Notes under the pieces: model-generated
Told to the model about the DNA's origin: nothing
Databases searched by the model: none
What the model saw: only the letters and a program-made list of their open reading frames with translations
Program-made: the position numbers and the translations under genes
Assembly (NCBI GenBank): GCA_964016885.1
Contig: OZ024750.1
Span: forward strand, 13,082,001-13,146,000
DNA length: 64,000 nucleotides
Direction: 5' to 3'
From: Eledone cirrhosa
Lineage: Eukaryota
Shown: positions 16,019 to 59,120 of the stretch, piece after piece
Position numbering within the stretch: the stretch's first letter is position 1
Layout of the letters: every line of letters starts with the position of its first letter

Positions 16019-16055
16019 TCTTACCTGAAAAAGAAACAAAAAGCAGCTGTTAGAT
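16019..16055 (-). promoter_or_regulatory. Candidate recursive splice site upstream of exon A (junction 16025/16024)
   Basis: Minus strand CTAACagctgctttttgtttctttttCAG|GTAAGA: branch-like CTAAC, pyrimidine tract, and AG directly followed by a strong donor. Confidence 0.7.
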
Positions 16056-18394
16056 ATATATATATATGAAACATACAGAATAAACAATTCAACATACATA
16101 AGCATACATTATAATCGACATATACCATAAAAACAGCAACGAAATATCACACAAGCTCATAATGAGATCTTTAATAAAGAGATCTTTATCACAATGGACA
16201 GAAATATTTGTGTCCACAAAAAAAATTATATATGCTGCAATATAAAGCGTGTCAAAAATGATACATTAAAATACTGGTTGATTATTATGTACATAATTTA
16301 TATTAGAAAATTTTGATTTCTACTTTTATGGCTTAAAAGAAAAGTTACATAAATCCAGCAGATAATACTAAAAACGATATAAATTCTATGTGTTGTATTT
16401 TATGAGAACAATATTATATTTCAAATAATTAGCACTGACTTCAGTCTATTCCAATTATTTCACCTTTTTTGTACATAAAATATATTGGAAATAAAAACTA
16501 GAAAATCTCTGACTTATATTTACATTTATAAACTCTCAATTATATTGTTTGGAATGACAGGTTATAATCTAATAAAACGAATCTAATAATATTGTAGTAA
16601 CCCCGAAACATCTGTAACAAATTCAATCAATATTGAGGGATTTACTGGCATAAGATACATTTCACCTTACACACATACTCAGACTGACAGACACACACAC
16701 ACACTCAGATTGAAGGCACACACACTCAGATTGAAGGCACGCACACACACACATTCTCAACTGTATTTATAAACTTCCATCTAATGTCTAATATAAAAGC
16801 CTTTATGAAACAACACATCTTTTCCAGTATTACTCAAAATATAATGTCTTCAGAAATTGCTGATGGAACCCTACTCCATTTAAATCCACTGTCGCTCACC
16901 ATTACCCTATCTCTTCCCTTAATCCTTCTCCTCTATCATTCGTCCTTAGAACAGTACCTGAACCCATCTAGAACTTCTTCCAGTCAGGTTTATCAATAAT
17001 AAATAATCTTCATTTTTTTCAAACTCTATATCAACTAAATCAACCTAACCCAATTATCTTTCTCCTTTCTGCAAATCTGGGGTTAAAAACCTTGACAAAG
17101 TGAATTAAATGTAAGACAAATCGATGTTTTAGTATTAAAAAATACATAAATATTTAATGAGAAACTGATCTATCTATTTGAAAATTATTTATCATATACT
17201 GAACTATTTGAATACAAAACATATTTTTAAATGTATATATTAAGTGTGGATATAGAATCAAAATGTGTATCAGAAGACAATAAACTATAAATTTATAATT
17301 GAATTTGTTATACTTCTATTTGAAATATAATTTGTCCTAAAATAACATTCTATTTTCTATGGCTTTAAAGAAATTAACATTATTGAAAATTTGGAAATTG
17401 AAACATGCTTCTTATGAATCTGAAAGCAGTTTTCAGCTATGTCACAATGTTAAAACTTATTATAATTCTCATAATTTCTAAATATGTGACATTTGACATA
17501 ACCTAAATATAACAACAAAACAATACTATGACTTAATTCTAATAAAAGTTTTATATATACATTTTTTAATAAGTAGCTATAGTCAAAATATTGGATTCTA
17601 TCATAAAATTTCAGTTTTAATTTGATATTTATAAATAATTTCTTTTATCTATAATGTACCATTTATTAGCAGTACCTACATTGAGATATCTTTTGAAGGA
17701 AAAACAGCAAAGATATCAATATACTAGTTATGATGTTTCCCAAATCATAGATAAACAAATTGCAGTCCATTTTACTGTTCATAGTTAAGCACACTAAAAA
17801 AGCAATGCTTACAAAGGAGAGCACTTGAATAGGACAGTGATACAACTACCAAACAAAGACAGTATGAAACAAAAACAGAACTAATATCATTTGGCAAATA
17901 TGAACAGTGTACATCAAACCTTTAAAAATATACCTCACATGAGATTGATAATAATGAATGTATACACCATTGAAAGCTCTTCAGCTGAGATTAAGCAGCA
18001 AAATAGAAATTAATTTCAAATAATTATTTTTAAAGCAAACATTGATTTTCAAATCTATTGGGAAATTAAACTTATATAAATACTTTCCAAAGATTAATTT
18101 ATAATATAATTCTATAACTATTAATTATAATCAATTGAAATGCTACTAAAAATATCCAAAAAGCAAATATACCAAAATAAGGATTTTTAGTAGTCATTAG
18201 GCTATAAATTTAGGGGAAGGCTATAATCAATAATATGTGATTATATGGAATTATGTGATTGATTGGAATTATTTGATCAACATCAGGAGGATGAATATAA
18301 AAGATAACTACAATGAGATTTGAACTCAAATATAAAGATGTGTACCTAATTACTGTTCCTTCATTCCAACCACTCCCCATCCCCAGTTTTACAG

Positions 18395-18505
18395 GGAAGG
18401 GGAAAGTTGATTAAATCGACCCCAGTGCATTTATTTTATTGGTACTTCATTTAATCGACCTCATAAAGATGAAAGGCAAAGCTTAAATTTGAGGGATTTG
18501 ATCAC
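18395..18505 (-). mobile_element. Degenerate SINE fragment (61485 family, reverse orientation)
   Basis: gggaaggggaaagttgattaaatcgaccccagtgcat...ggtact...gatgaaaggcaaag is the reverse complement of the SINE body. Confidence 0.65.
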
Positions 18506-19239
18506 AAATATTACTGAATAGTAAAACCTATTATTCCAATAATAAAAAAAATATTAATATTCTCATACGGAAAGTCAGAAATATATATGAAATATTGATG
18601 TTAGCTGACTTTTAAAAAAATTAGATTTTAATACTATACCACTCTAACGAAATCAAGATAAAATATTTTGTAGTTAAATATTAATCTTGGTTTTAAAATT
18701 AACAGACTATTATATCGATATAAAACAATGTAATTTATCAGAAGTTTATTCTGTTTCCAAATCTTATAAAATGTTTCTTCTATAGACTTTTATTTGGGTA
18801 ATAATCATTTTGATATTATTCTTTTGTTTATTAAAACATATATTCCATGATTCAAAGTCTAATACATTCGTATTAGATTTTATATATAATTTAAAGGATA
18901 TTTTCTAAGTATATATAAGATAATTCAAAATGCAAATCTCTTAATCAATTATGATTATTATATTAATTCCTCAGTGAAAAAAAAAAGATATTTCCTTGAC
19001 CAAATGCGTAAAAATATACGAGAGAATTGTAAAACTTATTTAAATATTTCCTTTAAATTATATACAAAAGAATAATAACTGAGAAGATCTAAAACATATA
19101 AAAATATAGAATTATTACATATTTTTAAATTGTGACTATATAAATGTATGGCTATGCACAAAATGCAAGTATAGTAGTTTATTTTTCATGCGCTATGATA
19201 AAGTAATATCTTAGATCCTATTTAATTCAATATATTTTA

Positions 19240-19440: not shown

Positions 19441-19514
19441 AAATACTATATCAATTTTGCCAAGCAGTAATAGAGAGAAGTGATATATTATGTGCTATGT
19501 AAGATTATAATACC

Positions 19515-19819
19515 TAGGCAAAGCAACATGCATCTAAACGATAATACAAAGAAAGCATTTTCTTTTTATGTGGACAATGTTATACTCATTTCTCATCAGA
19601 AATAACAGAGACCCAACAAAACTATTTACACATTATTCAGCTGAAAGAGACATGAAACAAGTACACTGGTTAAGTACATTAAAAGACATCATAATACACG
19701 TTTGAAAGCATGCTACCAAGGCATTGGTAAGCTACAAAGATTTATGCTTGTGTAAATTCAAGCAGTAGCAGCGAGTGCAGTAGCATAAAGTAAATCCTGC
19801 ATAAGGCTCCATAAAATAC
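19515..19819 (-). promoter_or_regulatory. Conserved intronic block after the exon B donor (UGCAUG at 19527-19532)
   Basis: Homologous to the blocks after exons A, C and D. Confidence 0.6.
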
Positions 19820-22800
19820 CTATGTCTTCAACAACTTCTTCTTTGAATGACTGAATATCTTCAGGACCAGAAAGGCTTGTTTTCGATTCAATAATTATAT
19901 CTCCCTCATGTACGATGCTTGGCAGAATGGTTTTTAAGACAGTTGTTTCATCAGTTATATTAAATTCAGATGAAGCAGAAATGATATCAGATTCCAATAC
20001 ATCAGGTTTACCAATATCAATAAATGTAATTTCTGATTTCTCAGTAGGTTTCTCATCAATATCAAGTTTAATAGATACTTCCTCTTTAGTTTCAGGTTTA
20101 ATATCAACTTGTGTCTTTTCAACTGGTTCCTTTGAAACTACATCTTCACGTACAATTTCAGAAGGAATAGTTTCTTGAATGGTAATCTCTTGTAAATCAG
20201 TGCTAACAACACCTACAGATTTAGGTATCTCTACATCTTCTTTTTCTATATCAGTTATATGTTCTACAGTGTCAACAACCAGATCTTCTGCTGTATGAAT
20301 CTCTTCAATTACAGTAACTGGTGTGTCTTTCTTATCAACAGGTATCACAGTAGTTTCAACTTTTGTTTCTTTATCTGATGGAATATCAAAGAATTCTTCT
20401 TCAGAAATTACTTCATCAGCTGTACTGACAATACTTACAGCTGGAGCACTTATTATTGACATTTCAGAAATTTCTTTCACATCTTTCTGTTCAGGAAAGA
20501 CTTCACTTTCCTTGCTGATTTCAATAACACTATCACTTACAATTTCTTCAGGTGTTTCTTCAGTTGTAGACATTTTCGTAGAACTAACGGAAATCTGAAT
20601 ACTACTCTCTTCAACTGGTTGAACACTCACTGTGTCTTTAAATGGTTCTGCCAATGTCTCTACAGTACTTTCTTTTTCTACTTCTTCACCTGTTGTAAAT
20701 GTTTGTTCAGTTTTTATAACTATAGGTGTTTGGTCCTCAGATGTGATTTTCTTAGAATCAATTGATACAACCATTTCAACAGGAATATCACTGATTTTCT
20801 CTGGAGAAATATCTGTTTTACTTTGTTCAGTGCTGGTACTTATAACTGAAGTAACTGTAACAGATTCAACCTTATCTGGTATAACTGATTCAGATATATC
20901 TGTAGGTTGAATTTCAGTAACAACTTTTACTTCTTCTTCTTCTGGTTGTTTTACCTTTATTTCAGTTGTAGAAATTGTTGTAATATCAGTAACTTTTGGT
21001 TTCTTCTCTTTAATTTCCAGTTCTTTACCTTCAATATGAACTGTACTTTCAGGTACAATATCAAATGTAGACATTTCTGGTGTAATTGTTGTTTCTTCTT
21101 TACTGATGATAATGTCACTTTTAGCAACAGTTACCTGTTCTTTTTCTATAGAAATAACATCCGGCACTGTAGGTGTAACTTGCATTTCAATATCACAGAC
21201 TGTTGTCTCAGGTTTACCAATATCAATAAATGTAATTTCAGATTTCTCAGTAGGTTTCTCACCAATGTCAAGTTGGATAGATACTTCCTCTTTAGTTTCT
21301 GGTTTAATATCAACTTGTGTCTTTTCAACCGGTTCCTTTGAAACTACATCTTCATGTACAATTTCAGAAGGAATAGTTTCTTTAATGGTAATCTCTTGTA
21401 AATCAGTGCTAACAACACCTACAGTTTGAGGTATCTCTACATCTTCTTTCTCTATATCAGTTGTATGTTCTACAGTGTCAACAACCACATCTTCTGCTGT
21501 ATGAATCTCTTCAATTACAGTCACTGATGTGTCTTTCTTATCAACAGGTATCTCAGTAGTTTCAACTTTTGTTTCTTTATCTGATGGAATATCAAAGAAT
21601 TCTTCTTCAGAAAGTACTTCATCAGCTGTACTTACAATACTTACAGATGGAGCACTTATTATTGTCATTTCAGAAATTTCTTTCACATCTTTCTGTTCAG
21701 GAAAGACTTCACTTTCCTTGCTGATTACAACGACACTATCACTTACAATTTCTTCAGGCGTTTCCTCAGTTGTAGACATTTTGGTAGAACTCACAGAAAT
21801 CTGAAAACTACTTGCTTCAACTGGTTTAACGCTCACTGTATCTTTAAATGGTTCTTCCAATGTCTCTACAGTACTTTCTTTTTCTACTTCTTCACCTGTG
21901 GTATATGTTTGTTCAGTTTTTATAACTATAGGTGTTTGGTCCTCAGATGTGATTTTCTTAGAATCAATTGATATAACCATTTCAACAGGAATATCACTGA
22001 TTTTCTCTGGAGAAATATCTGTTTTACTTTGTTCAGTGCTGGTACTTATAACTGAAGTAACTGTAACAGATTCAACCGTATCTGGTATAACTGATTCAGA
22101 TATATCTGTAGGCTGAATTTCAGTAACAACTTTTACTTCTTCTTCTTCTGGTTTTTTTACCTTTATTTCAGTTGTAGAAATTGTTGTAATATCAGTAACT
22201 TCTGGTTTCTTCTCTTTAATTTCCAGTTCTTTACCTTCAATATGAACTGTACTTTCAGGTACAATATCAAAGGTAGATATTTCTGGTGTAATTGTTGTTT
22301 CTTCTTTACTGATAATAATTCCACTTTTATCAAAAGTTATCTGTTCTTTTTCAGTAGAAATAACATCTGGTACTTTAGGTGTAACTTGCATTTCAATATC
22401 ACAGACTGTTGTCTCAGGTTTACCAATATCAATAAATGTAATTTCAGATTTCTTTATAGGTTTCTCACCAATGTCAAGTTGGATAGATACTTCCTCTTTA
22501 GTTTCTGGTTTAATATCAACTTGTGTCTTTTCAACTGGTTCCTTTGAAACTACATCTTCATGTACAGTTTCAGAAGGAATAGTTTCTTTAATGGTAATCT
22601 CTTGTAAATCAGTGCTAACAACAGCTACAGTTTGAGGTATCTCTACATCTTCTTTCTCTATATCAGTTGTATGTTCTACAGTGTCAACAACCACATCTTC
22701 TGCTGTATGAATCTCTTCAATTACAGTAACTGGTGTGTCTTTCTTATCAACAGGTATCTCAGTTGTTTCAACTTTTGATTCTTTATCTGATGGAATATCA

Positions 22801-25204
22801 AAGAATTCTTCTTCAGAAAGTACTTCATCAGCTGTACTTACAATACTTACAGCTGGAGCACTTATTATTGTCATTTCAGAAATTTCTTTCACATCTTTCT
22901 GTACAGGAATGACTTCACTTTCTTTGCTGATTACAACGACACTATCACTTACAATTTCTTCAGGTGTTTCCTCAGTTGTAGACATTTTGGTAGAACTCAC
23001 AGAAATCTGAAAACTACTCTCTTCAACTGGTTGAACACTCACTGTATCTTTAAATGGTTCTTCCAATGTCTCTACAGTACTTTCTTTTTCTACTTCTTCA
23101 CCTGTTGTAAATGTTTGTTCAGTTTTTATAACTATAGGTGTTTGGTCTTCAGATGTGATTTTCTTAGAATCAATTGATACAACCATTTCAACAGGAATAT
23201 CACTGATTTTCTCTGGAGAAATATCTGTTTTACTTTGTTCAGTACTGGTACTTATAACTGAAGTAACTGTAACAGATTCAACCTTATCTGGTATAACTGA
23301 TTCAGATATATCTGTAGGTTGAATTTCAGTAACAATTTTTACTTCTTCTTCTTCTGGTTGTTTTACCTTTATTTCAGTTGTAGAAATTGTTGTAATATCA
23401 GTAACTTCTGGTTTCTTCTCTTTAATTTCCAGTTCTTTACCTTCAATATGAACTGTACTTTCAGGTACAATATCAAAGGTAGACATTTCTGGTGTAATTG
23501 TTGTTTCTTCTTTACTGATAATAATTCCACTTTTAGCAACAGTTACCTGTTCTTTCTCGGTAGAAATAACATCTGGTACTTTAGGTGTAACTTGCATTTC
23601 AATTTCACCGACAGTTGTCTCAGGTTTACCAATATCAATAAATGTAATTTCAGATTTCTCTGTAGGTTTCTCACCAATGTCCAGTTGGATAGATACTTCC
23701 TCTTTAGTTTCAGGTTTAATATCAACTTGTGTCTTTACCACTGGTTCCTTTGAAACAACATCTTCATGTACAATTTCAGAAGGAATAGTTTCTTTAATGG
23801 TAATCTCTTGTAAATCAGTGCTAACAACACCTACAGTTTGAGGTATCTCTACATGTTCTTTCTCTATATCAGTTGTATGTTCTACAGTGTCAACAACCAC
23901 ATCTTCTGCTGTATGAATCTCTTCAATTACAGTCACTGATGTGTCTTTCTTATCAACAGGTACCTCAGTAGTTTCAACTTTTGTTTCTTCATCTGATGAG
24001 ATATCAAAGAATTCTTCTTCAGAAAGTACTTCATCAGCTGTACTTACAATACTTACAGCTGGAGCACTTATTATTGTCATTTCAGTAATTTCTTTCACAT
24101 CTTTCTGTACAGGAGTGATTTCACTTTCTTTGCTGATTTCAACAACTCTATCACTTACAATTTCTTCAGGAGTTTCTTCAGTTGTAGACATTTTGGTAGA
24201 ACTCACAGAAATCTGAATACTACTCTCTTCAACTGGTTGAACACTCACTGTATCTTTAAATGGTTCTTCCAATGTCTCTACAGTACTTTCTTTTTCTACT
24301 TCTTCACCTGTTGTAAATGTTTGTTCAGTTTTTATAACTATAGGTGTTTGGTCTTCAGATGTGATTTTCTTAGAATCAATTGATACAACCATTTCAACAG
24401 GAATATCACTGATTTTCTCTGGAGAAATATCTGTTTTACTTTGTTCAGTACTGGTACTTATAACTGAAGTAACTGTAACAGATTTAACCGTATCTGGTAT
24501 AACTGATTCAGATATATCTGTAGGTTGAATTTCAGTAACAACTTTTACTTCTTCTTCTTCTGGTTGTTTTACCTTTATTTCAGTTGTAGAAATTGTTGTA
24601 ATATCAGTAACCTCTGGTTTCTTCTCTTTAATTTCCAGTTCTTTACCTTCAATATGAACTGTACTTTCAGGTACAATATCAAAGGTAGACATTTCTGGTG
24701 TAATCGTTGTTTCTTCTTTACTGATAATAATTCCACTTTGAATAACAGTTACCTGTTCCTTTTCGGTAGAAATAATATCTGGTACTTTAGGTGTAACTTG
24801 CATTTCAATATCACACACTGTTGTCTCAGGTTTACCAATATCAATAAATGTAATTTCTGATTTCTCAGTAGGATTCTCTCCAATATCAAGTTGGATAGAT
24901 TCTTCCTCTTTAGTTTCTGGTTTAATATCAACTTGTGGTGTTTCTTTACTTGAAATTTGTATATCTATTCTCTTATCTATATTTTCAAATATTGATGGAC
25001 CTGTCTTTATTTGCTCTCTCTGAGAAATATAAACTTCATCTGATGTTACTATTTCCTTTTCAATATGAAAGTCTTCAGTTGTTTCTAATGAGGGTGAAAT
25101 TTCTGTTATTGTTTCAACTTTCTGTATAGCCATTTCTGGTATTTCTTTACTCTTCTCCTCTTCTTCCACAGTCATTGTTATTTCTTTTTGTACTGGTAAT
25201 TCAC
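19820..25204 (-). CDS. Giant exon B (5385 nt, 1795 codons, phase 1-1) with ~4 repeat copies
   Basis: ORF 19758..25175; tttatattAG|GTGAATTA; GACATAG|GTATTT; length divisible by 3. Confidence 0.85.
20000..24935. repeat. Coding tandem array, 1206-bp unit (exon B)
   Basis: Shadow ORF starts at 20323, 21529, 22735, 23941. Confidence 0.95.
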
Positions 25205-25505: not shown

Positions 25506-25557
<52 letters not shown>

Positions 25558-26140: not shown

Positions 26141-27818
26141 GAAATGTTTACTCTGTCAAGATGGTCTTGTGTCAAGTAATTCTTTGATCAAAAGAATTTA
26201 AGTTTGACCATCTTATGTTGGGCTTTATTTTCAGAAATATTTTGCCCATGACTATAGTGTCCAATATGTGGTTTACTTGATGTTGGGGTGGGTGCTTTAA
26301 GGAAGATTCAGTGGCTACTTCTAATAGTTGGAATGACCACGTATGTCCTTTGATCCTACCTTTTTAATGTTTATTATATATTTAGATATATAAAGTTGAT
26401 ATCATAAAGTTTTACAATAGTCTCTCATTTTATAAGTTACCCTAATGCTATTTATTTGTTTTTTTTAACATTGAATACTAATTTATAGATGTATATAATT
26501 GGTCTTGTTTTGACATTTCATAAGGAAGGGGATAGACCATCTAAGACTGGTGGGAAGAGGTTATCTTCAAATTGGAGACCTGGAACAAATGCTTGCAACA
26601 GAGTATACTTTGATAAAAATTACTCAAGACTCAAGTGCTAGTGTTAAGCCAGATGATGGACTAAGTATACCAATTCTGAACATTGAATGCAAAAAGCTAA
26701 ATCAAATATCACAAGATATTTCATCCAATGGTCTAATAATTCACCAATCTACTGTCCTGAACTGGCATTTTATGTTATCAACCTCAAAAAAAATGAAGGA
26801 GAAAATTGACCATGACAGGATTTGAACTTATGACAGTCTGGTGTGGTTTAAATAAAGCTATCATTTAATACACTATTTTTGCATTGTTTGCATAAAAATG
26901 ATGTACATATGGAGATATGTGAAACCATATTTATAGGGGAATTTTATTATTGCATATTTTTTATCAATGAGAAAAATCAACCAATATATTATTTAGAATT
27001 ATTTTTTAAGTATGTATATATGTATGTATACGTGTGTGGGGGGGGGGGGGGGGGGGTGTAAAGTAATCTTTCAATAGGTTAACTTCAGAAAATAATTAAA
27101 ATCTGTAGTCCAGTTGATTCTCCTAAATCACTCTCCTAACCATATAGCTTGTCTCTGGTTAGCAACAATATTACTCATATTTCTGTGTGTAATATCTGTG
27201 TATATGTGTGATTGTACATTGACACTGATATATTTATACAGGATACCTATATTGTTTTCTCTTACAATCGGGCATGTGTGTAATAAACATAATCAGTATA
27301 TATGATTTTTCTAGAATAAATCAAGAGAAAAGACTATTAAAAGGTCTTGGTAAACGTTATAAAGATATCTTGTCTTAAAACCATTCATATGTACTTTAGC
27401 AAATTTGACATAAAAGTTAAGAGCTGAATGTTAAAATTAAAAAAAAAACTGTAATGTTTAAAACATTGTATTAATATATATTCATAACAGTGTTTAATGC
27501 ACAACAGTACTCATGTGTAATTTGTTCTGACATAAAGTATGATAACAATTTTTAAAATATAAATTATAAAATTACATACCTGCGATGTTGAAAACTAAAT
27601 CATACTTTTGGTAACTCATTCATATCATGTTTTAAATTTAATACCTACTTCCTTTGTTGTATATCATTTGCTGTTTATATTCTCCCCACATATATTACTC
27701 TATATGTATATCATAACAAATATGTAAGTTATGATTCTGTATTATAGTAAATTATATTTATTAATTATGTAGATTCATTTTGGTATTTGATAATAGAAAT
27801 TCAATTGAAAAATTGGTA

Positions 27819-27850
27819 TCTTACCTGCAATAAACAAAAAAAGGATCACA
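27819..27850 (-). promoter_or_regulatory. Candidate recursive splice site upstream of exon B (junction 27825/27824)
   Basis: Minus strand gatcc(T)n-gtttattgCAG|GTAAGAtacc. Confidence 0.7.
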
Positions 27851-28409
27851 TGAATGACATTATTCAACATTAGATGGATAAAAACTATTAGAATAAATAC
27901 ATTTTAAATATCTTAAAATATAAATTGCAACAGAAAAAAAAACTATTAGAATTTGTAAAGAAATGGTTAAATAATTCTTATATAAAACAGTTTTACGGTG
28001 GCACAAAATAAAATATTTAGATTTTAAATTAAATATGCTGCAATTGAATATGATGAACAATTTAACAAGAGTTCGTTGTTATGTATATACTCGATCCATT
28101 ATAAATTAAATTTCTACTTTTAGACATTATACATTTAGAAGCTATATAAATTCAACTGTTGGGCTAGATTAAATATATATTTTATGAACAGAATTCTTGA
28201 TTAAAATTTTATAAATTCAGAAACTAAACAGAGGTCAATCTAATCAATTATTTTAATTATTTTACATAAGTTTCAGATATACTGAGGAATTAAAATGAGA
28301 GAAGACCTCCTTAACAATACCCAAGAAACCAAGGGAATTGCTACAACTATGAAATAAAACAGGAGTATAGAGTATGATTACTGATCACTTTCTATTACAA
28401 CTATATATA

Positions 28410-30159: not shown

Positions 30160-30462
30160 TAGGCAAAGCATCATGCACAATGTAATAATACAAAGAAAGC
30201 ATGTTCATTTGATATAGACAATGTTATAGACTATGGTGTAAATAATAAGAGACCCAACATAACAACTGACAAATTATTGAGCTGAAAAAGACATACGAAA
30301 AATATACACTGGTTAAATAGAGTAAAAGACATAATTATACAGATATAAAAGCATGCTACGAAGGCATTGGTAAGCTATGTGAATTGATGCTTCTATAAAT
30401 TTAAGCAGTAGAAGCAAGTGTAGAAGCATAGACTAAATCCTGGATAATTTTCCACAAAATAC
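30160..30462 (-). promoter_or_regulatory. Conserved intronic block after the exon C donor (UGCAUG at 30172-30177)
   Basis: Homologous to the blocks after exons A, B and D. Confidence 0.6.
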
Positions 30463-46029: not shown

Positions 46030-46070
46030 TCTTACCTGAAATAAACAAAAAAAAAGCCACGTGAAAGATA
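46030..46070 (-). promoter_or_regulatory. Candidate recursive splice site upstream of exon C (junction 46036/46035)
   Basis: Minus strand ctttcacgtggc(T)n-gtttatttCAG|GTAAGAtatc. Confidence 0.7.
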
Positions 46071-46090
46071 TACATTTATAAAAGGATATA

Positions 46091-46134
<44 letters not shown>

Positions 46135-46377: not shown

Positions 46378-46415
<38 letters not shown>

Positions 46416-46501
46416 GTAATAATAATAAATGTGAAGACTAAAATCCAAAGAGGGCTAGATAAGGATAAATATATATCAAATATATAAGAACCCTAGAGCA
46501 A

Positions 46502-46645
46502 ATATTTATTAAAATAACAGATTAAAGTTAAGCAAAGAATCGCTGCTTTCACCCTTAACAAGATCTTCTGAAACTCAGAAGATTCCGTTAAGGATGAAAG
46601 CCATGATTCTTTGCTTAAACTTTAATCTGTTATTTTAATAAATAT
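46502..46645. repeat. Imperfect palindrome (~70-bp arms)
   Basis: atttattaaaataacagattaaagttaagcaaagaatc...tcttctga aac tcagaaga...gattctttgcttaaactttaatctgttattttaataaat. Confidence 0.85.
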
Positions 46646-48749: not shown

Positions 48750-48920
48750 GCTGAGAATAAAAGACTCTTTTCATGTTCTACACCATAAGAATACACGGTC
48801 TGAGTTCAAATCCTGCCGAGGTTAACTTTGCCTTTCATCCTTATGGGGTCGATAAAATAAAGTACCAGTAATGTACTGGGTAATTGCTGGCCTTGTGCCA
48901 AATGTAGAAACAATTATTAA
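48750..48920 (+). mobile_element. tRNA-derived SINE, truncated
   Basis: B box GAGTTCAAATCC followed by tttgcctttcatcc...aaagtaccag...aattgctggccttgtgcc, shared with the copies at 61485 and 62930. Confidence 0.8.
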
Positions 48921-50059
48921 CTATAAGGCAATAATCTGATATGAACTTTAATATCATTAAACAGAAGTGTTAACAGCAACACTTATGCTATTTTCCAGTT
49001 TGAAAAGAGAAAGATAGAGGCAGAAGTTTCAATACAAAATTTTTCTAAAACTAATACAAAGTTTATAAGAATGTACTCTATTACTGAGGCTTCAAATTGA
49101 TTTATTAAGAATAATATGTAACTAGTTAATATTCAAGATAAGATTAGGAATTGGAAGAGCTAAAGTATAGACTTTATATATTTATTTGGGATTTCTGTAA
49201 TCTGAGTTCAAATCCCCTTCAGATCGACTTTGATGTTCAACGTATTGGAATCAATAAAGTATAGTACCAGTGTAGGTTAGTGAAATTATAATGTTGCCTT
49301 AGAAATACAGTAGTAAAGTAGGAAAATGTATATATGTAAGTCAAGAGAACATTAATATGAATAAACAAGATTGTATGTGAAATAACAACACAAACATTGA
49401 ATGATCAATTGATATGTTCTAACAATCATAATAATTAATGCAAAATACCCTTACTTAAATAAACTGACACATTACTGTTATATTCATCAATATAAGCTTA
49501 AATATTGAGCGGTTTTATGCTACATGTATGCACAAAATGCAAGTGTATTATAGGCTCGGCTCTTTTACATGCAATTGTAAAACCTAAAACATACTATGAT
49601 GAAATAATAATTGATGAACTAATAAACTGCACCTATAAACAATTATATGATATAAAGCATTAGTTAAAGGTTAACAATATGGAAATGCATGAACAATATG
49701 GAATTGTTCAAATATATTCTAACCATCAGACAAAGCAGATTGAGAATATGTATATTATAATAGTGCATAGATATTATCAGAGAATATAGATAGTAACAAA
49801 AAGAGAGAGAGAGAAAGATGAAGTGAAACAAAAACAAATGATAATGATACAGATAGAAGAATAAAAAAAATAAAAGGAGCAGAAAAAGAGAAATGTAGAG
49901 AGATGTAGAGAGATAAAGGAACTTGAAACACATATGTGAAATGAAGTGAGAAAGAATGAGTAACGAGAATAACAGTGACTTCGACTAAACATGAGTAAAA
50001 AAAATAAGGAGGTAGATAAAGAGTGAAAGATATGTTCCATTTTACATCACTTAAGTTCG

Positions 50060-50347
50060 CTAGGTGAAGCTGCATGCACTATGTACTAATTAATACAAAG
50101 AAAGCAACTTCTTTCATATTGACAAAGTTATCAGAAATTACAGAGACCCAACATAATAACTGACAAATTATTGAGCTGAAAGAGACATGAAAACATATAC
50201 AATGGTTAAGTATTTGAAAGACAACACAGTTGACAGCATGCTACCTAGGCATTGGTAAGCTACATCAATTGATGCTTGTGTAAACTCAAGCAGAGGCAGT
50301 GAGTGTAGAAGCACGAATTAAATCCTGCATAATGTTCTACAAAATAC
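50060..50347 (-). promoter_or_regulatory. Conserved intronic block after the exon D donor (UGCAUG at 50073-50078)
   Basis: Homologous to the blocks after exons A, B and C. Confidence 0.6.
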
Positions 50348-53300
50348 CTATGACTTCGACAACTTGTTCTTTGAATGACTGCAGATCAGCAGGAACAGGA
50401 AGAATAGTTTCACCCTCAATAACATCGTGTTCATGTTGAATACTTTGTGATGTGATTGATGTTTCTTCTTTGCTGTGAGGCATTATATCGATTTCAGAAA
50501 CAGCTTTATCATCAATACTTTTCTTACTAATCATAATTCCACTTTCATTAAACGTTATCTGTTCTTTTTCGGTAGAAATAACATCTGGTACTTCAGGAGT
50601 AATTTGCATTTCAATTTTACACACTGTTGTCTCAGGTTTACCAATATCAATAAATGTAATTTCAGATTTCTCAGTAGGTTTCTCATCAATATCAAGTTTA
50701 ATAGATACTTCCTGTATGGTTTCTGGTTTAATATCAACTTGTGTCTTTTCAACTGGTTCCTTTGAAACAACATCTTCATGTACAATTTCAGAAGGAATAG
50801 TTTCTTTAATATCAAATATAACTGATTCAGATATATCTGTAGGTTGAATTTCAGTAACAACTTTTACTTCTTCTTCTTCTGGTTGTTTTACATTTATTTC
50901 AGTTGTGGAAATTGTTGTAATATCAGTAACTTCTGGTTTCTTCTCTTGAATTTCCAGTTCTTTACCTTCAATATGAACTGTACTTTCAGGTACAATATCA
51001 AAGGTAGATATTTCTGGTGTAATTGTTGTTTCTTCTTTACTGATAATAATTTCACTTTTAGCAAGAGTTACCTGTTCTTTTTCAGTAGAAATAACATCTG
51101 GTACTTTAGGTGTAACTTGTATTTCAATATCACACACTGTTGTCTCAGGTTTACCAATATCAATAAATGTAATTTCAGATTTCTCAGTAGGATTCACACC
51201 AATGTCAAGTTGGATAGATACTTCCTCTTTAGTTTCAGGTTTAATATCAACTTGTGTCTTTTCAACTGGTTCCTCTGAAATGACATCTTCATGTACAATT
51301 TCAGAAGGAATAGTTTCTTTAATGGTAATCTCTTGTAAATCAGTGCTAACAACACCTACAGTTTGAGATATCTCTACATCTTCTTTCTCTATATCAGTTG
51401 TATGTTCTACAGTGTCAACAACCACATCTTCTGCTGTATGAATCTCTTCAATTACAGTAACTGATGTGTCTTTCTTATCAACAGGTACCTCAGTAGTTTC
51501 AACTTTCGTTTCTTTATCCGATGGAATATCAAAGAGTTCTTCTTCAGAAAGTACTTCGTCAGCTGTACTTACAATACTTACAGCTGGAGCACTTATTATT
51601 GTCATTTCAGAAATTTCTTTCACGTCTTTCTGTACAGGAATGACTTCACTTTCCTTGCTGATTTCAACAACACTATCACTTACAATTTCTTCAGGTGTTT
51701 CCTGAGTTGTAGACATTTTGGTAGAACTCACAGAAATCTGAATACTACTCTCTTCAACTGGTTGAACACTCACTGTATCTTTAAATGGTTCTTCCAATGT
51801 CTCTACAGTACTTTCTTTTTCTACTTCTTCACCTGTTGTAAATGTTTGTTCAGTTTTTATAACTATAGGTGTTTGATCTTCTGATATGATTTTCTTAGAA
51901 TCAATTGATACGACCATTTCAACAGGAATATCACTGATTTTCTCTGGAGAAATATCTGTTTTACTTTGTTCAGTACTGGTACTTATAACTGAAGTAACTG
52001 TGACAGATTCAACCTTATCTGGTATAAATGATTCAGATATATCTGTAGGTTGAATTTTAGTAACAACTTTTACTTCTTCTTCTTCTGGTTGTTTTACCTT
52101 TATTTCAGTTGTAGAAATTGTTGTAATATCAGTAACTTCTGGTTTCTTCTCTTTAATTTCCAGTTCTTTACCTTCAATATGAACTGTACTTTCAGGTACA
52201 ATATCAAAGGTAGATATTTCTGGTGTAATTGTTGTTTCTTCTTTCCTTATAATAATTTCACTTTTAGCAACAGTTACCTGTTCTTCATCGGTAGAAATAA
52301 CATCTGGTACTTTAGGTGTAACTTGCATTTCAATTTCACACACTGTTGTCTCAGGTTTACCAATATCAATAAATGTAATTTCAGATATCTCAGTAGGTTT
52401 CTCACCAATGTCAAGTTGGATAGATACTTCCTCTTTAGTTTCTGGTTTAATATCAACTTGTGTCTTTTCAACTGGTTCCTCTGAAATGACATCTTCATGT
52501 ACAGTTTCAGAAGGAATAGTTTCTTTAATGGTAATCTCTTGTAAATCAGTGCTAACAACACCTACAGTTTGAGGTATCTCTACATCTTCTTTCTCTATAT
52601 CAGTTGTATGTTCTACAGTGTCAACAACCACATCTTCTGCTGTATGAATCTCTTCAATTACAGTAACTGATGTGTCTTTCTTATCAACAGGTACCTCAGT
52701 AGTTTCAACTTTCGTTTCTTTATCCGATGGAATATCAAAGAGTTCTTCTTCAGAAAGTACTTCATCAGCTGTACTAACAATACTCACAGCTGGAGCACTT
52801 ATTATTGTCATTTCAGAAATTTCTTTCACATCTTTCTGTTCAGGAATGACTTCACTTTCCTTGCTGATTTCAACAACACTATCACTTACAATTTCTTCAG
52901 GTGTTTCTTCAGTTGTAGACATTTTGGTAGAACTCACAGAAATCTGAAAACTCCTCTCTTCAACTGGTTGAACACTCACTGTATCTTTAAATGGTTCTTC
53001 CAATGTCTCTACAATACTTTCTTTTTCTACTTCTTCACCTGTGGTATATGTTTGTTCAGTTTTTATAACTATAGGTGTTTGATCTTCTGATATGATTTTC
53101 TTAGAATCAATTGATATAACCATTTCAACAGGAATATCACTGATTTTCTCTGGAGAAATATCTGTTTTACTTTGTTCAGTACTGGTACTTATAACTGAAG
53201 TAACTGTAACAGATTCAACCTTATCTGGTATAACTGATTCAGATATATCTGTAGGTTGAATTTCAGTAACAACTTTTACTTCTTCTGGTTGTTTTACCTT

Positions 53301-56300
53301 TATTTCAGTTGTAGAAATTGTTGTAATATCAGCAACATCTGGTTTCCTCTCTTTAATTTCCAGTTCTTTACCTTCAATATGAACTGTACTTTCAGGTACA
53401 ATATCAAAGGTAGATATTTCTGGTGTAATTGTTGTTTCTTCTTTACTTATAATAATTTCACTTTTAGCAACAGTTACCTGTTCTTCATCGGTAGAAATAA
53501 CATCTGGTACTTTAGGTGTAACTTGCATTTCAATTTCACACACTGTTGTCTCAGGTTTACCAATATCAATAAATGTAATTTCAGATTTCTCTGTAGGATT
53601 TTCATCAATGTCAAGTTGGATAGATACTTCCTCTTTAGTTTCAGGTTTAATATCAACTTGTGTCTTTTCAACCGGTTCCTCTGAAATGACATCTTCATGT
53701 ACAGTTTCAGAAGGAATAGTTTCTTTAATGGTAATCTCTTGTAAATCAGTGCTAACAACACCTACAGTTTGAGATATCTCTACATCTTCTTTCTCTATAT
53801 CAGTTGTATGTTCTACAGTGTCAACAACCACATCTTCTGCTGTATGAATCTCTTCAATTGCAGTAACTGATGTGTCTTTTTTATCAACAGGTACCTCAGT
53901 AGTTTCAACTTTTGATTCTTTATCTGATGGAATATCAAAGAATTCTTCTTCAGAAAGTACTTCATCAGCTGTACTCACAATACTTACAGCTGGAGCACTT
54001 ATTATTGTCATTTCAGAAATTTCTTTCACATCTTTCTTTTCAGGAATGACTTCATTTTCTTTGCTGATTTCAACAACACTATCACTTTCAATTTCTTCAG
54101 GTGTTTCTTCAGTTGTAGACATTTTGGTAGAACTCACAGAAATCTGAATACTACTCTCTTCAACTGGTTGAACACTCACTGTATCTTTAAATGGTTCTTC
54201 CAATGTCTCTACAGTACTTTCTTTTTCTACTTCTTCACCTGTTGTATATGTTTGTTCAGTTTTTATAACTATAGGTGTTTGGTCCTCAGAAGTGATTTTC
54301 TTAGAATCAATTGATACAACCATTTCAACAGGAATATCACTGATTTTCTCTGGAGAAATATCTGTTTTACTTTGTTCAGTACTGGTACTTATAACTGAAG
54401 TAACTGTAACAGATTCAACCGTATCTGGTATAACTGATTCAGATATATCTGTAGGTTGAATTTCAGTAACAACTTTTACTTCTTCTTCTTCTGGTTGTTT
54501 TACCTTTATTTCAGTTGTAGAAATTGTTGTAATATCAGTAACCTCTGGTTTCTTCTCTTTAATTTCCAGTTCTTTACCTTCAATATAAACTGTACTTTCA
54601 GGTACAATATCAAAGGTAGACATTTCTGGTGTAATTGTTGTTTCTTCTTTACTGATAATAATTTCACTTTTAGCAACAGTTACCTGTTCTTCATCGGTAG
54701 AAATAATATCTGGTACTTTAGGTGTAACTTGCATTTCAATTTCACACACTGTTGTCTCAGGTTTACCAATATCAATAAATGTAATTTCAGATTTCTCTGT
54801 AGGATTCTCACCAATGTCAAGTTGGATAGATACTTCCTCTTTAGTTTCAGGTTTAATATCAACTTGTGTCTTTTCAACTGGTTCCTCTGAAATGACATCT
54901 TCATGTACAGTTTCAGAAGGAATAGTTTCTTTAATGGTAATCTCTTGTAAATCAGTGCTAACAACACCTACAGTTTGAGGTATCTCTACATCTTCTTTCT
55001 CTATATCAGTTGTATGTTCTACAGTGTCAACAACCACATCTTCTGCTGTATGAATCTCTTCAATTACAGTAACTGATGTGTCTTTCTTATCAACAGGTAC
55101 CTCAGTAGTTTCAACTTTTGATTCTTTATCTGATGGAATATCAAAGAATTCTTCTTCAGAAAGTACTTCATCAGCTGTAGTCACAATACTTACAGCTGGA
55201 GCACTTATTATTGTCATTTCAGAAATTTCTTTCACATCTTTCTGTACAGGAATGACTTCACTTTCCTTGCTGATTTCAACAACACTATCACTTACAATTT
55301 CTTCAGGTGTTTCCTCAGCTGTAGACATTTTGGTAGAACTCACAGAAATCTGAATACTACTCTCTTCAACTGATTGAACACTCACTGTATCTTTAAATGG
55401 TTCTTCCAATGTATCTACAGTACTTTCTTTTTCTACTTCTTCACCTGTGGTATATGTTTGTTCAGTTTTTATAACTATAGGTGTTTGATCTTCTGATATG
55501 ATTTTCTTAGAATCAATTGATACAACCATTTCAACAGGAATATCACTGATTTTCTCTGGAGAAATATCTGTTTTACTTTGTTCAGTACTGGTACTTATAA
55601 CTGAAGTAACTGTAACAGATTCAACCTTATCTGGAATAACTGATTCAGATATATCTGTAGGTTGAATTTCAGTAACAACTTTTACTTCTTCTTCTGATTG
55701 TTTTACCTTTATTTCAGTTGTAGAAATTGTTGTAATATCAGTAACTTCTGGTTTCTTCTCTTTAATTTCCAGTTCTTTACATTCAATATGAACTGTACTT
55801 TCAGGTACAATATCAAAGGTAGACATTTCTGGTGTAATTGTTGTTTCTTCTTTACTGATAATAATGTCATTTTTAGCAACAGTTACCTGTTCTTTTTCAG
55901 TAGAAATAATATCTGGTACTTTAGGTGCAACTTGCATTTCAATTTCACACACTGTTGTCTCAGGTTTACCAATATCAATAAATGTAATTTCAGATTTCTC
56001 AGTAGGATTCACACCAATGTCAAGTTGGATAGATACTTCCTCTTTAGTTTCTGGTTTAATATCAACTTGTGTCTTTTCAACTGGTTCCTTTGAAACTATA
56101 TCTTCATGTACAGTTTCAGAAGGAATAGTTTCTTTAATGGTAATCTCTTGTAAATCAGTGCTAACAACACCTACAGTTTGAGGTATCTCTACATCTTCTT
56201 TCTCTATATCAGTTGTATGTTCTACAGTGTCAACAACCACATCTTCTGCTGTATGAATCTCTTCAATTACAGTAACTGATATGTCTTTCTTAACAACAGG

Positions 56301-57412
56301 TATTTCAGTAGTTTTAACTTTTGTTTCTTCATCTGATGAGATATCAAAGAATTCTTCTTCAGAAAGTACTTCGTCAGCTGTACTCACAATACTTACAGCT
56401 GGAGCACTTATTATTGTCATTTCAGAAATTTCTTTCACATCTTTCTGTACAGGAATGACTTCACTTTCCTTGCTGATTTCAACAACTCTATCACTTACAA
56501 TTTCTTCAGGTGTTTCCTCAGTTGTAGACATTTTGGTAGAACTCACAGAAATCTGAATACTACTCTCTTCAACTGGTTTAACACTCACTGTATCTTTAAA
56601 TGGTTCTTCCAATGTCTCTACAGTACTTTCTTTTTCTACTTCTTCACCTGTTGTAAATGTTTGTTCAGTTTTTATAACTATAGGTGTCTGGTCTTCAGAT
56701 GTGATTTTCTTAGAATCAATTGATACAACCATTTCAACAGGAATATCACTGATTTTCTCTGGAGAAATATCTGTCTTACTTTGTTCAGTACTGGTACTTA
56801 TAACTGAAATAACTGTAACAGATTCAACCTTATCTGGTATAACTGATTCAGATATATCTGTAGGTTGAATTTCAGTAACAACTTTTACTTCTTCTTCTTC
56901 TGGTTGTTTTACCTTTATTTCAGCGGTAGAAATTGTTGTAATATCAGTAACTTCTGGTTTCTTCTCTTTAATTTCCAGTTCTTTACCTTCAATATGAACT
57001 GTACTTTCAGGTACAATGTCAAAGGTAGACATTTCTGGTGTAATTGTTGTTTCTTCTTTACTGATAATGATTTCACTTTTAGCAACAGTTACCTGTTCTG
57101 TTTCTGTAGAAATAATATGTGGCACTTTAGCTGTAACTTGTATTTCAATTTGGTCCTTGTGAGGAACATAGATTTCATTTGGCGTTACTATTTCTGTTTC
57201 AATATATTGTTGTTCTGTAGTTTCTTGGAGTACTTTTGTTTCATAAGTTACTGTTTCCACTACATCTGATGTTACTTTTATATCCATATTAATGCCTTTT
57301 GTTATTTCGAATGAGGGTGAAACCTCTTCTATTACCATTTCTGTTATTTCTCTCTTTGTTTCATCATCTTCTTTGTCTCTCTTTCTTATTTCTCTATCGA
57401 CTGGCAAATCAC
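50348..57412 (-). CDS. Giant exon D (7065 nt, 2355 codons, phase 1-1) with ~5.5 repeat copies
   Basis: ORF 50337..57407; tttatatcAG|GTGATTTG; GTCATAG|GTATTT; length divisible by 3; a stop follows within a few codons if the donor is not used. Confidence 0.85.
50530..57140. repeat. Coding tandem array, ~1206-bp unit (exon D)
   Basis: Shadow ORF starts at 51466, 52672, 53872, 55078, 56281. Confidence 0.95.
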
Positions 57413-59075
57413 CTGATATAAATCAAATAATTTTTAATAATGCATTCTCACTTAATAATCATTATTTTGTCTCCATAATTACGTATACTGTGCTGAATGA
57501 AAATAAATGAAATAATTATTTTACATTATAGAATTGAAATATCATAAAATACATTTTCTTGTCACAATGTTCCTTGTAAACAATAAATTGGTTGCTCCTA
57601 AGTTTGTATTGGTTGTTGAATTTGAATGAAGTTTTGTAGTTTGTATGTACATTCCTCTGTCTCATATATGTTGTGGTATAACACATGCTGATTTAAATGC
57701 TATAATGTTTTGTTTCAGTAACCAGAAACCATTGATATGTCTTCCAATCACTGATATTGTGAATGGCTATTATTCCTTTTTAAAATTTAGTAATACTAAA
57801 CATTATTTTGTCTATAATAAAGATGGATCATATTGGTGGATGTTTGTTTTATACTGTGAAATTCACATATTATACATTATGATTCTCTAAATTAGAGTAA
57901 TTTAATGCATTGATTAAAATCTATATTGGAAAGTTGTTGGAAGGTAGGCAGCTGAATTAATTTCAGGAGCTGGTACAGTAATGCCGTAGCTTCAGAATTT
58001 GGTCATCAGAAGAAGGGAGGTAGCTGTAATAGCCAAACTCACTATATTCAATTCAGTGTTTATGCCTAACATTAGCCATAGTCATGATTCACTACTCCTT
58101 TGAATTGAAAGCTCACAGTTACAGTACTACAGACGTGGTCAGATTGCTGGACAGATTTTATGGGCAAAACAAACTAGCAGGAAATCCAGGGGTAGACCAT
58201 GACCAAGATGTTTGGATAACACCCATGAGCTCACTAGGGGATCCAGCTAGATGAATTGGAAACAGTTACTTCTGACGGGATCTGCTGATTGACCCTACAT
58301 GTCAATCAAATTAGGATCCCACCTCCACATAGTTTAGAAAGAACTGAAAGAAAAAGATTTTTCAGTTATCCTCTCACCCTCAATAACTATATATAATTTG
58401 AAGTATGAAAAGAAAAACGGTAAAATTTAGTGCTTTGTTCATTGTTTTATGACCACTTTAAAAGCTGGAATGAACCATGATAATATCGATAGCAGTTAAG
58501 GAAGTAAATTTTAGGACACTAAATTCGGATGCTAAATGGTCATACTGGTAAAACTACTGAATGTTTTTAAATGCATTTTCCACCTTCAAAAGTTTTTAAA
58601 TACCTGAGTATAATTGCCGACGTCCTATTTTGTTTTTAATATAAGCAGTAAGAGTTATACTAAATATCTGTTTTGTTTTCTGTTTTTTAATAAGATTAAA
58701 TATTCCGCAACTCCCAGAAATATTCTTGTATAGTTTCTTCAAAGAATGTAGAAACTGATCAATAAATATTTCATAAATAATACACAGGAATGTGATGATG
58801 TATCTGAAAATAAGATAGTTTCATTTGAAATGAAAATGAAATAAAAATACGAATTTGAAATATTCTTGAAAATAGAAATTATAAAATTACATACCTGGAA
58901 TGTAGAAAAAGCCATAATTTTGGCAAAACATTGAAATTCTGTTTTAATACATACTTCCTCAGTTGAATATTTATATTATTGTGTATGGATATCATAACAG
59001 ATAAACTGTAGTATAGTAAATTATGTACATACATTTTGGTATTTGATAACAGGAATTCCATAAATGAAAATGATA

Positions 59076-59120
59076 TCTTACCTGAAATATACAAAAAGAA
59101 AAAAAAAACGTGAAAGATAC
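59076..59120 (-). promoter_or_regulatory. Candidate recursive splice site upstream of exon D (junction 59082/59081)
   Basis: Minus strand ctttcacg(T)n-ctttttgtatatttCAG|GTAAGAtatc. Confidence 0.7.

What the first reader, a model, noticed from the sequence alone, without database searches (positions are those of the whole stretch)
16019..59120. One candidate recursive splice site placed upstream of each of four giant exons
Seen: on the gene strand, a U-rich tract + CAG immediately followed by GTAAGA occurs at junctions 59082/59081, 46036/46035, 27825/27824 and 16025/16024. There is one per giant exon, 1669, 1464, 2620 and 3259 nt upstream of its acceptor, and I saw none between exon A and the Ig exons. 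CAG|GTAAGA is invariant while the surrounding intron has diverged heavily. Known: 3'ss|5'ss juxtapositions (ratchet points, zero-nt exons) mediate recursive splicing in Drosophila (e.g. Ubx) and in long vertebrate introns. Inference: here they are not subdividing huge introns but may regenerate a strong donor close to a 4-14 kb exon that is too long for exon definition, and may act as stepwise include/skip decision points. I am not aware of this duplicated 'ratchet point + giant exon' design being described in molluscs.
Basis: partly seen in the sequence, partly recalled or inferred. Interest (0 to 1): 0.92.

Follow-up and report, generated by a model that had tools for sequence, protein, structure and literature searches.

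The report
Duplicated ratchet points in octopod titin
A giant muscle-spring (titin-like) gene of an octopus-like animal carries four duplicated units, each with a fused "end-of-intron/start-of-intron" signal ahead of a 4-14 kb optional-looking exon; these look like the stepping stones used to cut long introns piecewise, but no RNA could be examined to show they are used.

Summary
The four U-tract CAG|GTAAGA junctions and their distances are exact. They are the only high-scoring acceptor|donor fusions in 336 kb of the gene's sense strand, with none antisense. They are not independent: each belongs to a tandemly duplicated intron+exon module, and their flanks are still 55-73% identical. Within that background the junction is preferentially conserved. 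New here: each site has a conserved GTATGT donor 187-629 nt downstream, enclosing a frameshifting cryptic exon, which is the Drosophila ratchet-point/RS-exon layout. The giant exons have the gene's weakest splice sites. If the giant exons are skipped, the sites cut an 80-86 kb span into 11-32 kb pieces, so 'not subdividing huge introns' is probably wrong. Other 3-4.5 kb exons of the gene have no ratchet. No RNA run was available, so use is unproven. Best reading: real recursive sites (0.6); a role in gating each exon is speculative (0.25). This scan noted similar unproven ratchet candidates in other genomes, but not this module.

The parts
59076..59112 (-). Candidate ratchet point RP1: branch-like TTCAC (-30), pyrimidine tract 17/20, CAG|GTAAGA at 59082/59081
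   Evidence: (acceptor score above all 101 FN3-exon acceptors of the gene)
58895..59081 (-). Candidate cryptic RS-exon 1, 187 nt, ends at CAG|GTATGT; a second donor-like site at 127 nt; frameshifting
50348..57412 (-). Giant exon G1 (B in scripts), 7065 nt, phase 1/1, E/V/T/I/S-rich 402-aa repeats; weak acceptor and weak donor ATAG|GTATTT
50050..50347 (-). Conserved post-donor block 1 with a branch-like TTAAC, pyrimidine tract and acceptor AG at 50176 followed by an in-frame stop; YGCY runs and TGCATG
46030..46063 (-). Candidate ratchet point RP2, CAG|GTAAGA at 46036/46035, tract 16/20
   Evidence: contig cover
45809..46035 (-). Candidate cryptic RS-exon 2, 227 nt, ends at CAG|GTATGT; second donor GAT|GTAAGT at 164 nt; stops in phase
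30463..44571 (-). Giant exon G2 (C), 14109 nt, phase 1/1, weak splice sites
30160..30462 (-). Conserved post-donor block 2, acceptor AG at 30282 then stop
27819..27852 (-). Candidate ratchet point RP3, CAG|GTAAGA at 27825/27824, tract 15/20
27580..27824 (-). Candidate cryptic RS-exon 3, 245 nt, ends at CAG|GTATGT; stops in phase
19820..25204 (-). Giant exon G3 (D), 5385 nt, phase 1/1, weak splice sites
19510..19819 (-). Conserved post-donor block 3, acceptor AG at 19641 then stop
16019..16051 (-). Candidate ratchet point RP4: CTAAC (-26), tract 17/20, CAG|GTAAGA at 16025/16024
15396..16024 (-). Candidate cryptic RS-exon 4, 629 nt, stretched by a 360-nt TA microsatellite (15520-15883); ends at CGG|GTATGT; second donor-like site at 555 nt
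8509..12765 (-). Giant exon G4 (A), 4257 nt, phase 1/1, weak splice sites
8200..8508 (-). Conserved post-donor block 4, acceptor AG at 8320
5118..5156 (-). Predicted 39-nt phase-1 exon, the first ordinary exon I could identify after the giant-exon array (prediction from sequence only)

Best explanation
The four sites are intronic ratchet points with cryptic RS-exons. They arose once and were copied with the giant exon when a [ratchet - weak acceptor - giant exon - weak donor - conserved block] module was duplicated to four copies in an octopod titin-like gene. Proposed path (anatomy shown, every splicing step inferred): (1) the strong acceptor and the GTATGT donor about 190-250 nt downstream define a short cryptic exon; (2) the upstream exon is spliced to this AG, regenerating a donor (xAG|GTAAGA after a giant exon); (3) this donor removes the cryptic exon together with the next intron piece, joining either the weak acceptor of the adjacent giant exon 1.5-3.3 kb away (inclusion) or the next ratchet 12-18 kb away (skipping). 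The main job is the textbook one: piecewise removal of what is an 80-86 kb intron in short-spring isoforms. A side effect is that the weak GTATTT donor of an included giant exon is swapped for a stronger one. Because all four exons are phase 1/1 and multiples of three, any subset keeps the frame and would tune spring length.
For: Only four AG|GT junctions pass acceptor>=9 and donor>=5.8 bits in 336 kb of sense strand, and they are these four; 0 antisense (matrices trained on 101 acceptors and 100 donors of predicted FN3 exons of the same gene). RP acceptors rank at the 100th, 98th, 36th and 77th percentile; giant-exon acceptors at the 1st-7th; GTATTT at the 4th. CAGGTAAG(A) and the downstream GGTATGT are each the longest invariant run in their block across 4 of 4 copies (estimated chance 5e-5 and 1e-3). 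3 of 4 downstream donors match 9 of 11 U1-consensus positions, against 2 such sites in 42 kb of this gene's introns (0.012 per 250 nt). The enclosed segments (187, 227, 245, 629 nt) are all frameshifting and indel-ridden, as described for cryptic RS-exons (PMC8605326). Segment sizes of 10.9-31.9 kb fit Drosophila. Genome-wide, a tight tract+YAG|GTAAGT pattern has 16 matches against 1 for the reversed pattern and 0, 2 and 2 for three non-donor endings. 16 of 16 fetched loci have a stop at once in phase 2, and 13 of 16 have no frame of 50 codons or more in the other two phases; only one pair is clearly related. This hints that this genome uses ratchet points generally.
Against: No RNA evidence at all. 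The four sites are one origin, so the enrichment is a P of about 0.03 event plus conservation. The invariance estimates assume independent columns and ignore gene conversion and shared ancestry. No orthologous intron could be read. The downstream donor is as strong as the ratchet donor (7.3 vs 7.4 bits; 9 vs 7-8 U1 matches), whereas Drosophila ratchet donors are generally the stronger (PMC8605326; hth is an exception). The cryptic exons are longer than the ~50 nt given for flies. The GGTATGT run alone is not significant when its position is not pre-specified (P=0.07). Genome-wide, the GTAAGA ending itself was not enriched (2 vs 2 reversed; a looser GTAAGATA pattern 31 vs 30). A fourth control ending gave 69 matches, 60 of them one identical 23-mer that I take for a repeat. 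Downstream donors were found at only 7 of 16 genome-wide sites, against 1 of 16 upstream windows and 12 of 48 far/antisense windows. That the giant exons are ever skipped is inferred, not shown.
Confidence: 0.6

Rival explanations
1. Ordinary cryptic 'poison' or decoy exons: the AG is a real acceptor and GTATGT the real donor; the 187-629 nt exon is included to shift the frame (NMD or truncated titin) or acts as a decoy that delays splicing; the GTAAGA start is incidental.
For: Acceptor and downstream donor are both conserved and strong; all four segments are frameshifting, three with many in-phase stops; the downstream donor is at least as strong as GTAAGA.
Against: It does not explain why GTAAGA at the exon start is invariant in 4 of 4 copies while the rest of the segment drifts (estimated 2e-3). 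It is not exclusive of the best reading: an RS-exon becomes a poison exon when its ratchet donor loses (PMC8605326).
Confidence: 0.13
2. Alternative first exons of internal promoters (as recalled for the Cronos isoform of vertebrate titin): GTAAGA and the GTATGT sites are alternative donors of a first exon that splices onto each giant exon; no upstream exon ever joins the AG.
For: CAG is also the preferred exonic end of a donor. An in-frame ATG without a stop lies within 20 codons upstream in 3 of 4 copies, and the indels between that ATG and the junction in copies 1-3 are 3 nt long. CANNTG E-box-like words lie at about -25 in copies 2-4 (seen; motif recalled).
Against: 20 of 101 ordinary FN3 acceptors of the gene also show such an ATG, and the three copies share it by descent; copy 4 has an in-frame stop. 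The AG-free pyrimidine tract scores as a top acceptor and has a branch-like YTNAY at -26 to -30 in all four (weak evidence, 68 of 101 true acceptors have one and no background was computed).
Confidence: 0.1
3. Neutral relic: one chance AG|GTAAGA was copied by recent tandem duplication and has simply not yet decayed.
For: The sites are paralogous; the flanks are 55-73% identical and homology extends several hundred bases beyond the motif in some pairs; one site by chance has P of about 0.03.
Against: Only 40% of ungapped columns in the block are invariant (22% of G/C columns outside the motif), yet the junction and the downstream donor are the top invariant runs, and the latter survived a 360-nt microsatellite insertion in copy 4.
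Confidence: 0.12
4. Anti-termination role: each giant exon can end the transcript (via the conserved acceptor plus stop 172-189 nt after its donor, or read-through), and the ratchet's role is to offer a competing strong acceptor and U1 site so that the transcript continues.
For: A conserved acceptor (35th-77th percentile) followed by a stop in the first two codons in copies 1-3; no donor with 7 or more U1 matches within 390 nt in copies 1 and 2; the block is 69-82% identical, more than the coding ends (59-82%).
Against: AATAAA/ATTAAA positions are not conserved (first at 1161, 891, 593 and 268 nt); the last giant exon has the same block but no ratchet after it.
Confidence: 0.05

Closest known systems
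Drosophila intronic ratchet points with cryptic RS-exons (Ubx, kuz, Bx, luna; bioRxiv 10.1101/006163; PMC8605326; PMC6110457)
   Same: Fused strong acceptor and donor, conserved junction with poorly conserved out-of-frame cryptic exon and downstream donor, segment sizes of 11-32 kb; the two Ubx microexons start with the same GTAAGA.
   Different: Paralogous copies alternating with 4-14 kb coding cassette-like exons rather than independent sites in an exon-free intron; local introns are only 5.2-7.1 kb when the giant exons are included; cryptic exons 187-629 nt rather than ~50 nt; downstream donor not weaker; mollusc; unproven in RNA.
Vertebrate RS-exons and exonic recursive sites (Sibley 2015 and Blazquez 2018 as cited in PMC8605326; PMC10156609)
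   Same: Exon-definition route to a recursive site; recursive sites can influence exon exclusion. The giant exons here also begin with GT(GA) and end in TAG.
   Different: There the regulated exon is itself the RS-exon; here the ratchet is a separate intronic element 1.5-3.3 kb upstream of the regulated exon. The GTGA(T/A) starts of the giant exons score only in the 1st-5th percentile as donors.
Computationally enriched RP-sites in large introns of insects and sea urchin (PMC2773006)
   Same: Sense-strand excess of fused sites in an invertebrate; here 4 vs 0 in the gene.
   Different: That survey held no mollusc (0 hits for 'mollus', 'Aplysia', 'Lottia') and concerned introns over 50 kb.
Alternatively spliced spring exons of titins: Drosophila sallimus exons 31-32, vertebrate PEVK exons (PMC12063666)
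   Same: [quoted passage not shown]
   Different: Exons here are E/V/T/I/S-rich with only ~6% proline and a 402-aa repeat; no recursive splicing was found described for titin exons in my searches.

Membership tests
Intronic ratchet point (zero-nucleotide recursive splice site) | Juxtaposed strong 3' splice site and 5' splice site (AG|GT) on the sense strand | tested here: met
Intronic ratchet point (zero-nucleotide recursive splice site) | Junction conserved more than its surroundings | tested here: met
   Among 4 paralogues only; orthologues not available
Intronic ratchet point (zero-nucleotide recursive splice site) | Conservation in orthologous introns of related species | not testable with these tools
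   No related genome held; only an Argonauta protein was found
Intronic ratchet point (zero-nucleotide recursive splice site) | Cryptic RS-exon: a downstream donor enclosing a non-coding, usually out-of-frame segment | tested here: met
   187/227/245/629 nt, conserved G|GTATGT in 4 of 4; longer than the ~50 nt of flies
Intronic ratchet point (zero-nucleotide recursive splice site) | Ratchet donor generally stronger than the RS-exon donor | tested here: inconclusive
   Equal by hexamer matrix (7.4 vs 7.3), weaker by U1 match count; the rule has exceptions
Intronic ratchet point (zero-nucleotide recursive splice site) | Located in a long intron (over ~11 kb in the fly set) | tested here: inconclusive
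   Met for RP1 (27-34 kb intron if no unseen exon) and for all sites in skip isoforms (80-86 kb); not met for RP2-4 when neighbours are included (5.2-7.1 kb)
Intronic ratchet point (zero-nucleotide recursive splice site) | Junction reads into the site, saw-tooth coverage, lariats from the regenerated donor, absence from mature mRNA | not testable with these tools
   No RNA holder listed; the three runs laid behave as genomic DNA
Mutually exclusive exon cluster steered by RNA pairing (Dscam type, recalled) | Conserved docking/selector complementarity | tested here: not met
   No inverted match with E below 0.02 between 11 conserved blocks and 92 kb of sense strand; no complement of four invariant motifs with fewer than 2 mismatches
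Titin family (lophotrochozoan mixed type) | I-set Ig domains, long low-complexity spring region, FN3 arrays | tested here: met
   Pfam I-set in 3 and fn3 in 1 of 6 pieces scanned; 101 FN3-like exons; ORF maps
Titin family (lophotrochozoan mixed type) | C-terminal kinase domain (present in some titins) | not tested
   No kinase search was run; FN3-like ORFs end near -163 kb

The most novel reading that the evidence does not exclude
A duplicated 'ratchet + giant exon' module acts as a serial switchboard. Each ratchet resets the splicing decision directly in front of a 4-14 kb exon with weak sites, so each exon is included, skipped or used as a terminal exon independently. This would give up to 16 in-frame spring lengths (0 to about 10,300 residues) plus truncated titins, tuning the stiffness of different cephalopod muscles. 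It would make an intronic zero-nucleotide site a regulator of neighbouring giant exons and, as far as my searches reach, be the first recursive splicing shown in a mollusc.
Probability: 0.25. Interest if true: 0.85.

Novelty: new variant of a known kind. Interest (0 to 1): 0.55.

Why it matters
How exons far beyond the exon-definition limit are recognised and alternatively skipped, and what recursive splicing is for, are open questions. Four natural replicates of one ratchet + giant-exon module in one highly expressed muscle gene give exact junction coordinates to test both with existing cephalopod total RNA-seq or RT-PCR. A positive result would extend recursive splicing to molluscs (no such paper) and link it to titin spring-length control. 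If the sites only subdivide the skip-isoform intron, the finding is a neat new instance of a known mechanism.

Tried and rejected
RNA evidence: no RNA holder listed for 44300-50620. The three runs of unknown kind (one sample) were laid: flat depth of about 7-13 on long contigs that run straight across exon-intron borders, and the listed joints fall in repeats (251 more joints not shown). I treat them as DNA and as no evidence on splicing either way. Only this one of the four introns was tried. Homologous proteins: none for the G1 N-terminus; one Argonauta hians protein for G3 (55% identity over 28% of the query), a single ORF-like repeat protein ending in DIGI like the read-through ends here, which is four residues and says nothing on introns; only distant Ig proteins for the upstream exon. 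Microexon reading: rejected, there is no AG in the 18 nt before the CAG (filter); the nearest in copy 4 abuts the branch-like motif. Coding-exon reading of the segment after the AG: rejected, stops or frameshift in all four and non-triplet indels. Transposon origin of the block: a genome search with the RP2 block found only copies 1-3 (3 of 3 candidates). RNA docking/selector pairing: none. Genome-wide motif counts are lower bounds by the tool's own note, and one control was swamped by a repeat. One search was too loose to be informative. Literature: 'recursive splicing'+'octopus' 0 papers; +'mollus' 2 irrelevant by listing; +'titin' 9, none on this by listing; +'exon duplication' 8 papers, 7 listed, none on this; 'titin'+'cephalopod'+'exon' 7, none on this. 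The library lacks most subscription papers. No supplementary files were read; the ratchet-point tables of the Drosophila papers could show whether sallimus or other giant-exon genes carry such sites.

Full report
Setting. The window is G000:C10:13082001-13146000 in a 3.0-Gb genome. The minus strand carries part of a titin-like gene of more than 330 kb: Ig-like ORFs from about +160 kb, large acidic exons, more Ig exons, then about 100 FN3-like exons down to about -163 kb (window numbering). Pfam confirmed I-set in 3 and fn3 in 1 of the 6 pieces scanned. The only close protein hit for a giant exon is from the octopod Argonauta hians, so I infer an octopod; I do not name a species. All exon borders are predictions from sequence.

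Observation. The four CAG|GTAAGA junctions and their distances to the giant-exon acceptors are exactly as reported. The giant exons G1-G4 are 7065, 14109, 5385 and 4257 nt, phase 1 at both ends, each a multiple of three, and built of a 402-residue repeat. Local shuffles of 28 kb of window intron give 0.032 such motifs on average.

The sites are paralogues. All-against-all comparison of the introns shows three homologous blocks per module: about 300 nt after each giant-exon donor, 250-330 nt around each site, and 60-95 nt before each acceptor. The RP2 block has no copy outside this locus. Within the block only 40% of ungapped columns are invariant, yet CAGGTAAG is the longest invariant run (8 columns against 3; P=0.004). 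A per-base estimate for all nine letters is 5e-5 and for GTAAGA alone 2e-3. These estimates treat columns as independent and ignore gene conversion.

New anatomy. Each site is followed by a conserved G|GTATGT donor 187, 227, 245 and 629 nt downstream, the last stretched by a TA microsatellite, and by a second donor-like site about 60-75 nt before it. Copy 4 has CGG before the GT, so what is conserved is a donor, not a second acceptor. All four enclosed segments shift the frame. This is the layout given for Drosophila ratchet points: a conserved junction and a poorly conserved, out-of-frame cryptic exon with a downstream donor (PMC8605326; first of six parts and passages read; also passages of PMC6110457). 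Differences are the greater length and a downstream donor that is not weaker.

Splice-site strength. Matrices were built from 101 acceptors and 100 donors of predicted FN3 exons of the same gene; donors were picked as the best U1 match in the expected length range, which biases that set upward. The ratchet acceptors rank at the 36th-100th percentile, the giant-exon acceptors at the 1st-7th and their GTATTT donors at the 4th. The giant-exon acceptor carries a 14-nt invariant run, which suggests a regulated weak site (inference). A scan of 336 kb for AG|GT passing both thresholds returns these four sites on the sense strand and none antisense. The thresholds were chosen after seeing the scores; a cruder filter over 464 kb gave 6 sense hits (these four, one downstream donor and one weak site) and 2 antisense hits.

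What the sites subdivide. I saw no exon between 84.5 kb and RP1 (ORF scan; 57200-84000 read by eye; very short exons could be missed). From the donor at 90958 the segments are 31.9, 13.0, 18.2, 11.8 and 10.9 kb, and the all-skip intron is 85.8 kb, or 79.5 kb from a weak internal donor of the 84.8-kb exon. Drosophila segments run 2.6-63.6 kb, median 16.4 kb (bioRxiv 10.1101/006163, first of two parts read). So in skipping isoforms the sites do the textbook job. When neighbours are included, RP2-4 sit in introns of only 5.2-7.1 kb. Against a general need for ratchets before giant exons, upstream exons of about 3.3 and 4.5 kb have none and end in GTAAGT. Skipping itself is inferred from phase symmetry, weak sites and analogy with sallimus PEVK exons (PMC12063666; passages and section 6 read).

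Genome context. A tight tract+YAG|GTAAGT pattern has 16 matches genome-wide, against 1 reversed and 0, 2 and 2 for three non-donor endings. A fourth control gave 69, of which 60 are one identical 23-mer (counted from the listing; repeat origin inferred). The GTAAGA ending was not enriched (2 vs 2; 31 vs 30 for a looser pattern). The 16 loci are mostly unrelated and mostly non-coding after the AG; 7 of 16 have a downstream donor, against 1 of 16 upstream windows and 12 of 48 other control windows. I did not establish their host genes. This is a modest hint that ratchet points exist in this lineage. RP-site enrichment was reported for insects and sea urchin but no mollusc was surveyed (PMC2773006, passages).

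Second conserved element. After every giant-exon donor lies a block 69-82% identical between copies, more than the coding ends. It holds 6-10 YGCY words per 320 nt against 2.2 in background, an invariant TGCATG (MBNL- and RBFOX-type motifs; names recalled), and a good acceptor 172-189 nt from the donor, followed at once by a stop in copies 1-3. Copies 1 and 2 have no good donor within 390 nt. It may mark alternative terminal exons or a decoy, but poly(A) signals are not positionally conserved.

Rivals. A poison or decoy exon explains the acceptor and the downstream donor but not the invariant GTAAGA. An internal first exon is not excluded: 3 of 4 copies have an in-frame ATG upstream, but so do 20 of 101 ordinary acceptors. 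A neutral relic is disfavoured by the conservation pattern. RNA-pairing control of mutually exclusive exons found no support.

Limits. No RNA run holds the stretch in the index, the three runs laid are genomic, and no orthologous intron could be read. Every splicing step is inferred. Earlier notes of this scan describe unproven ratchet candidates in four other windows, two in sea urchin; none for this genome or sequence. They did not change my reading, which was set down before I opened them.

Verdict. A real, selected-looking feature that works like a Drosophila ratchet point with a cryptic exon (0.6). Membership is not proven because the defining RNA tests could not be run. The new part is the duplicated pairing with weak-site giant exons in a molluscan titin; I found no paper on it. 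Interest 0.55; 0.85 if the gating model (probability 0.25) holds.

Noticed in passing
window 50050-50347, 30160-30462, 19510-19819, 8200-8508 (minus strand): Conserved block after each giant-exon donor with a branch-like motif, pyrimidine tract and acceptor 172-189 nt downstream, an immediate stop in three copies, YGCY clusters, an invariant TGCATG and a 13-nt invariant run; possible alternative terminal exon, decoy or regulator-binding platform.
   Followed up: partly
L003:516-794 minus (window numbering 84516-84794): Exon with a good acceptor whose read-through encodes a strongly hydrophobic 19-residue stretch (mean hydropathy 2.34) and a cysteine-rich tail before a stop; could end a membrane-anchored short titin isoform. 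Its internal donor is very weak; no Pfam hit.
   Followed up: partly
window 57429-57416, 44588-44575, 25221-25208, 12782-12769: A 14-nt run just before each giant-exon acceptor is invariant in all four copies although it makes a poor pyrimidine tract; candidate binding site for a splicing regulator.
   Followed up: partly
window 8360-8508: Read-through past the last giant exon's donor stays open for about 50 codons and is hydrophobic (best 19-residue mean 1.73); shorter similar tails follow G2 and G3.
   Followed up: partly
window 57412, 44571, 25204, 12765: The giant exons themselves start with GTGA(T/A) after AG, so their 5' ends are weak donor-like after splicing (1st-5th percentile); may simply reflect a phase-1 glycine codon (14 of 101 FN3 exons also start with GT).
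   Followed up: partly
L046 and L047 (G000:C3:79024081 and 79076222, minus): Two ratchet-like sites 52 kb apart on one strand are 89% identical over 155 nt: another duplicated ratchet-like element.
   Followed up: no
L041-L056: Sixteen genome-wide tract+YAG|GTAAGT sites, mostly non-coding after the AG: a candidate list for recursive splicing in this genome.
   Followed up: partly
window about 722-800 and 385-458: Small exons near the window start appear to encode an IQ-like calmodulin-binding motif split by an intron (read by eye; motif recalled).
   Followed up: no
window 46502-46645: A 145-nt imperfect palindrome (87%) upstream of RP2 with very high copy depth in DNA contigs, probably a MITE-like repeat.
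   Followed up: no
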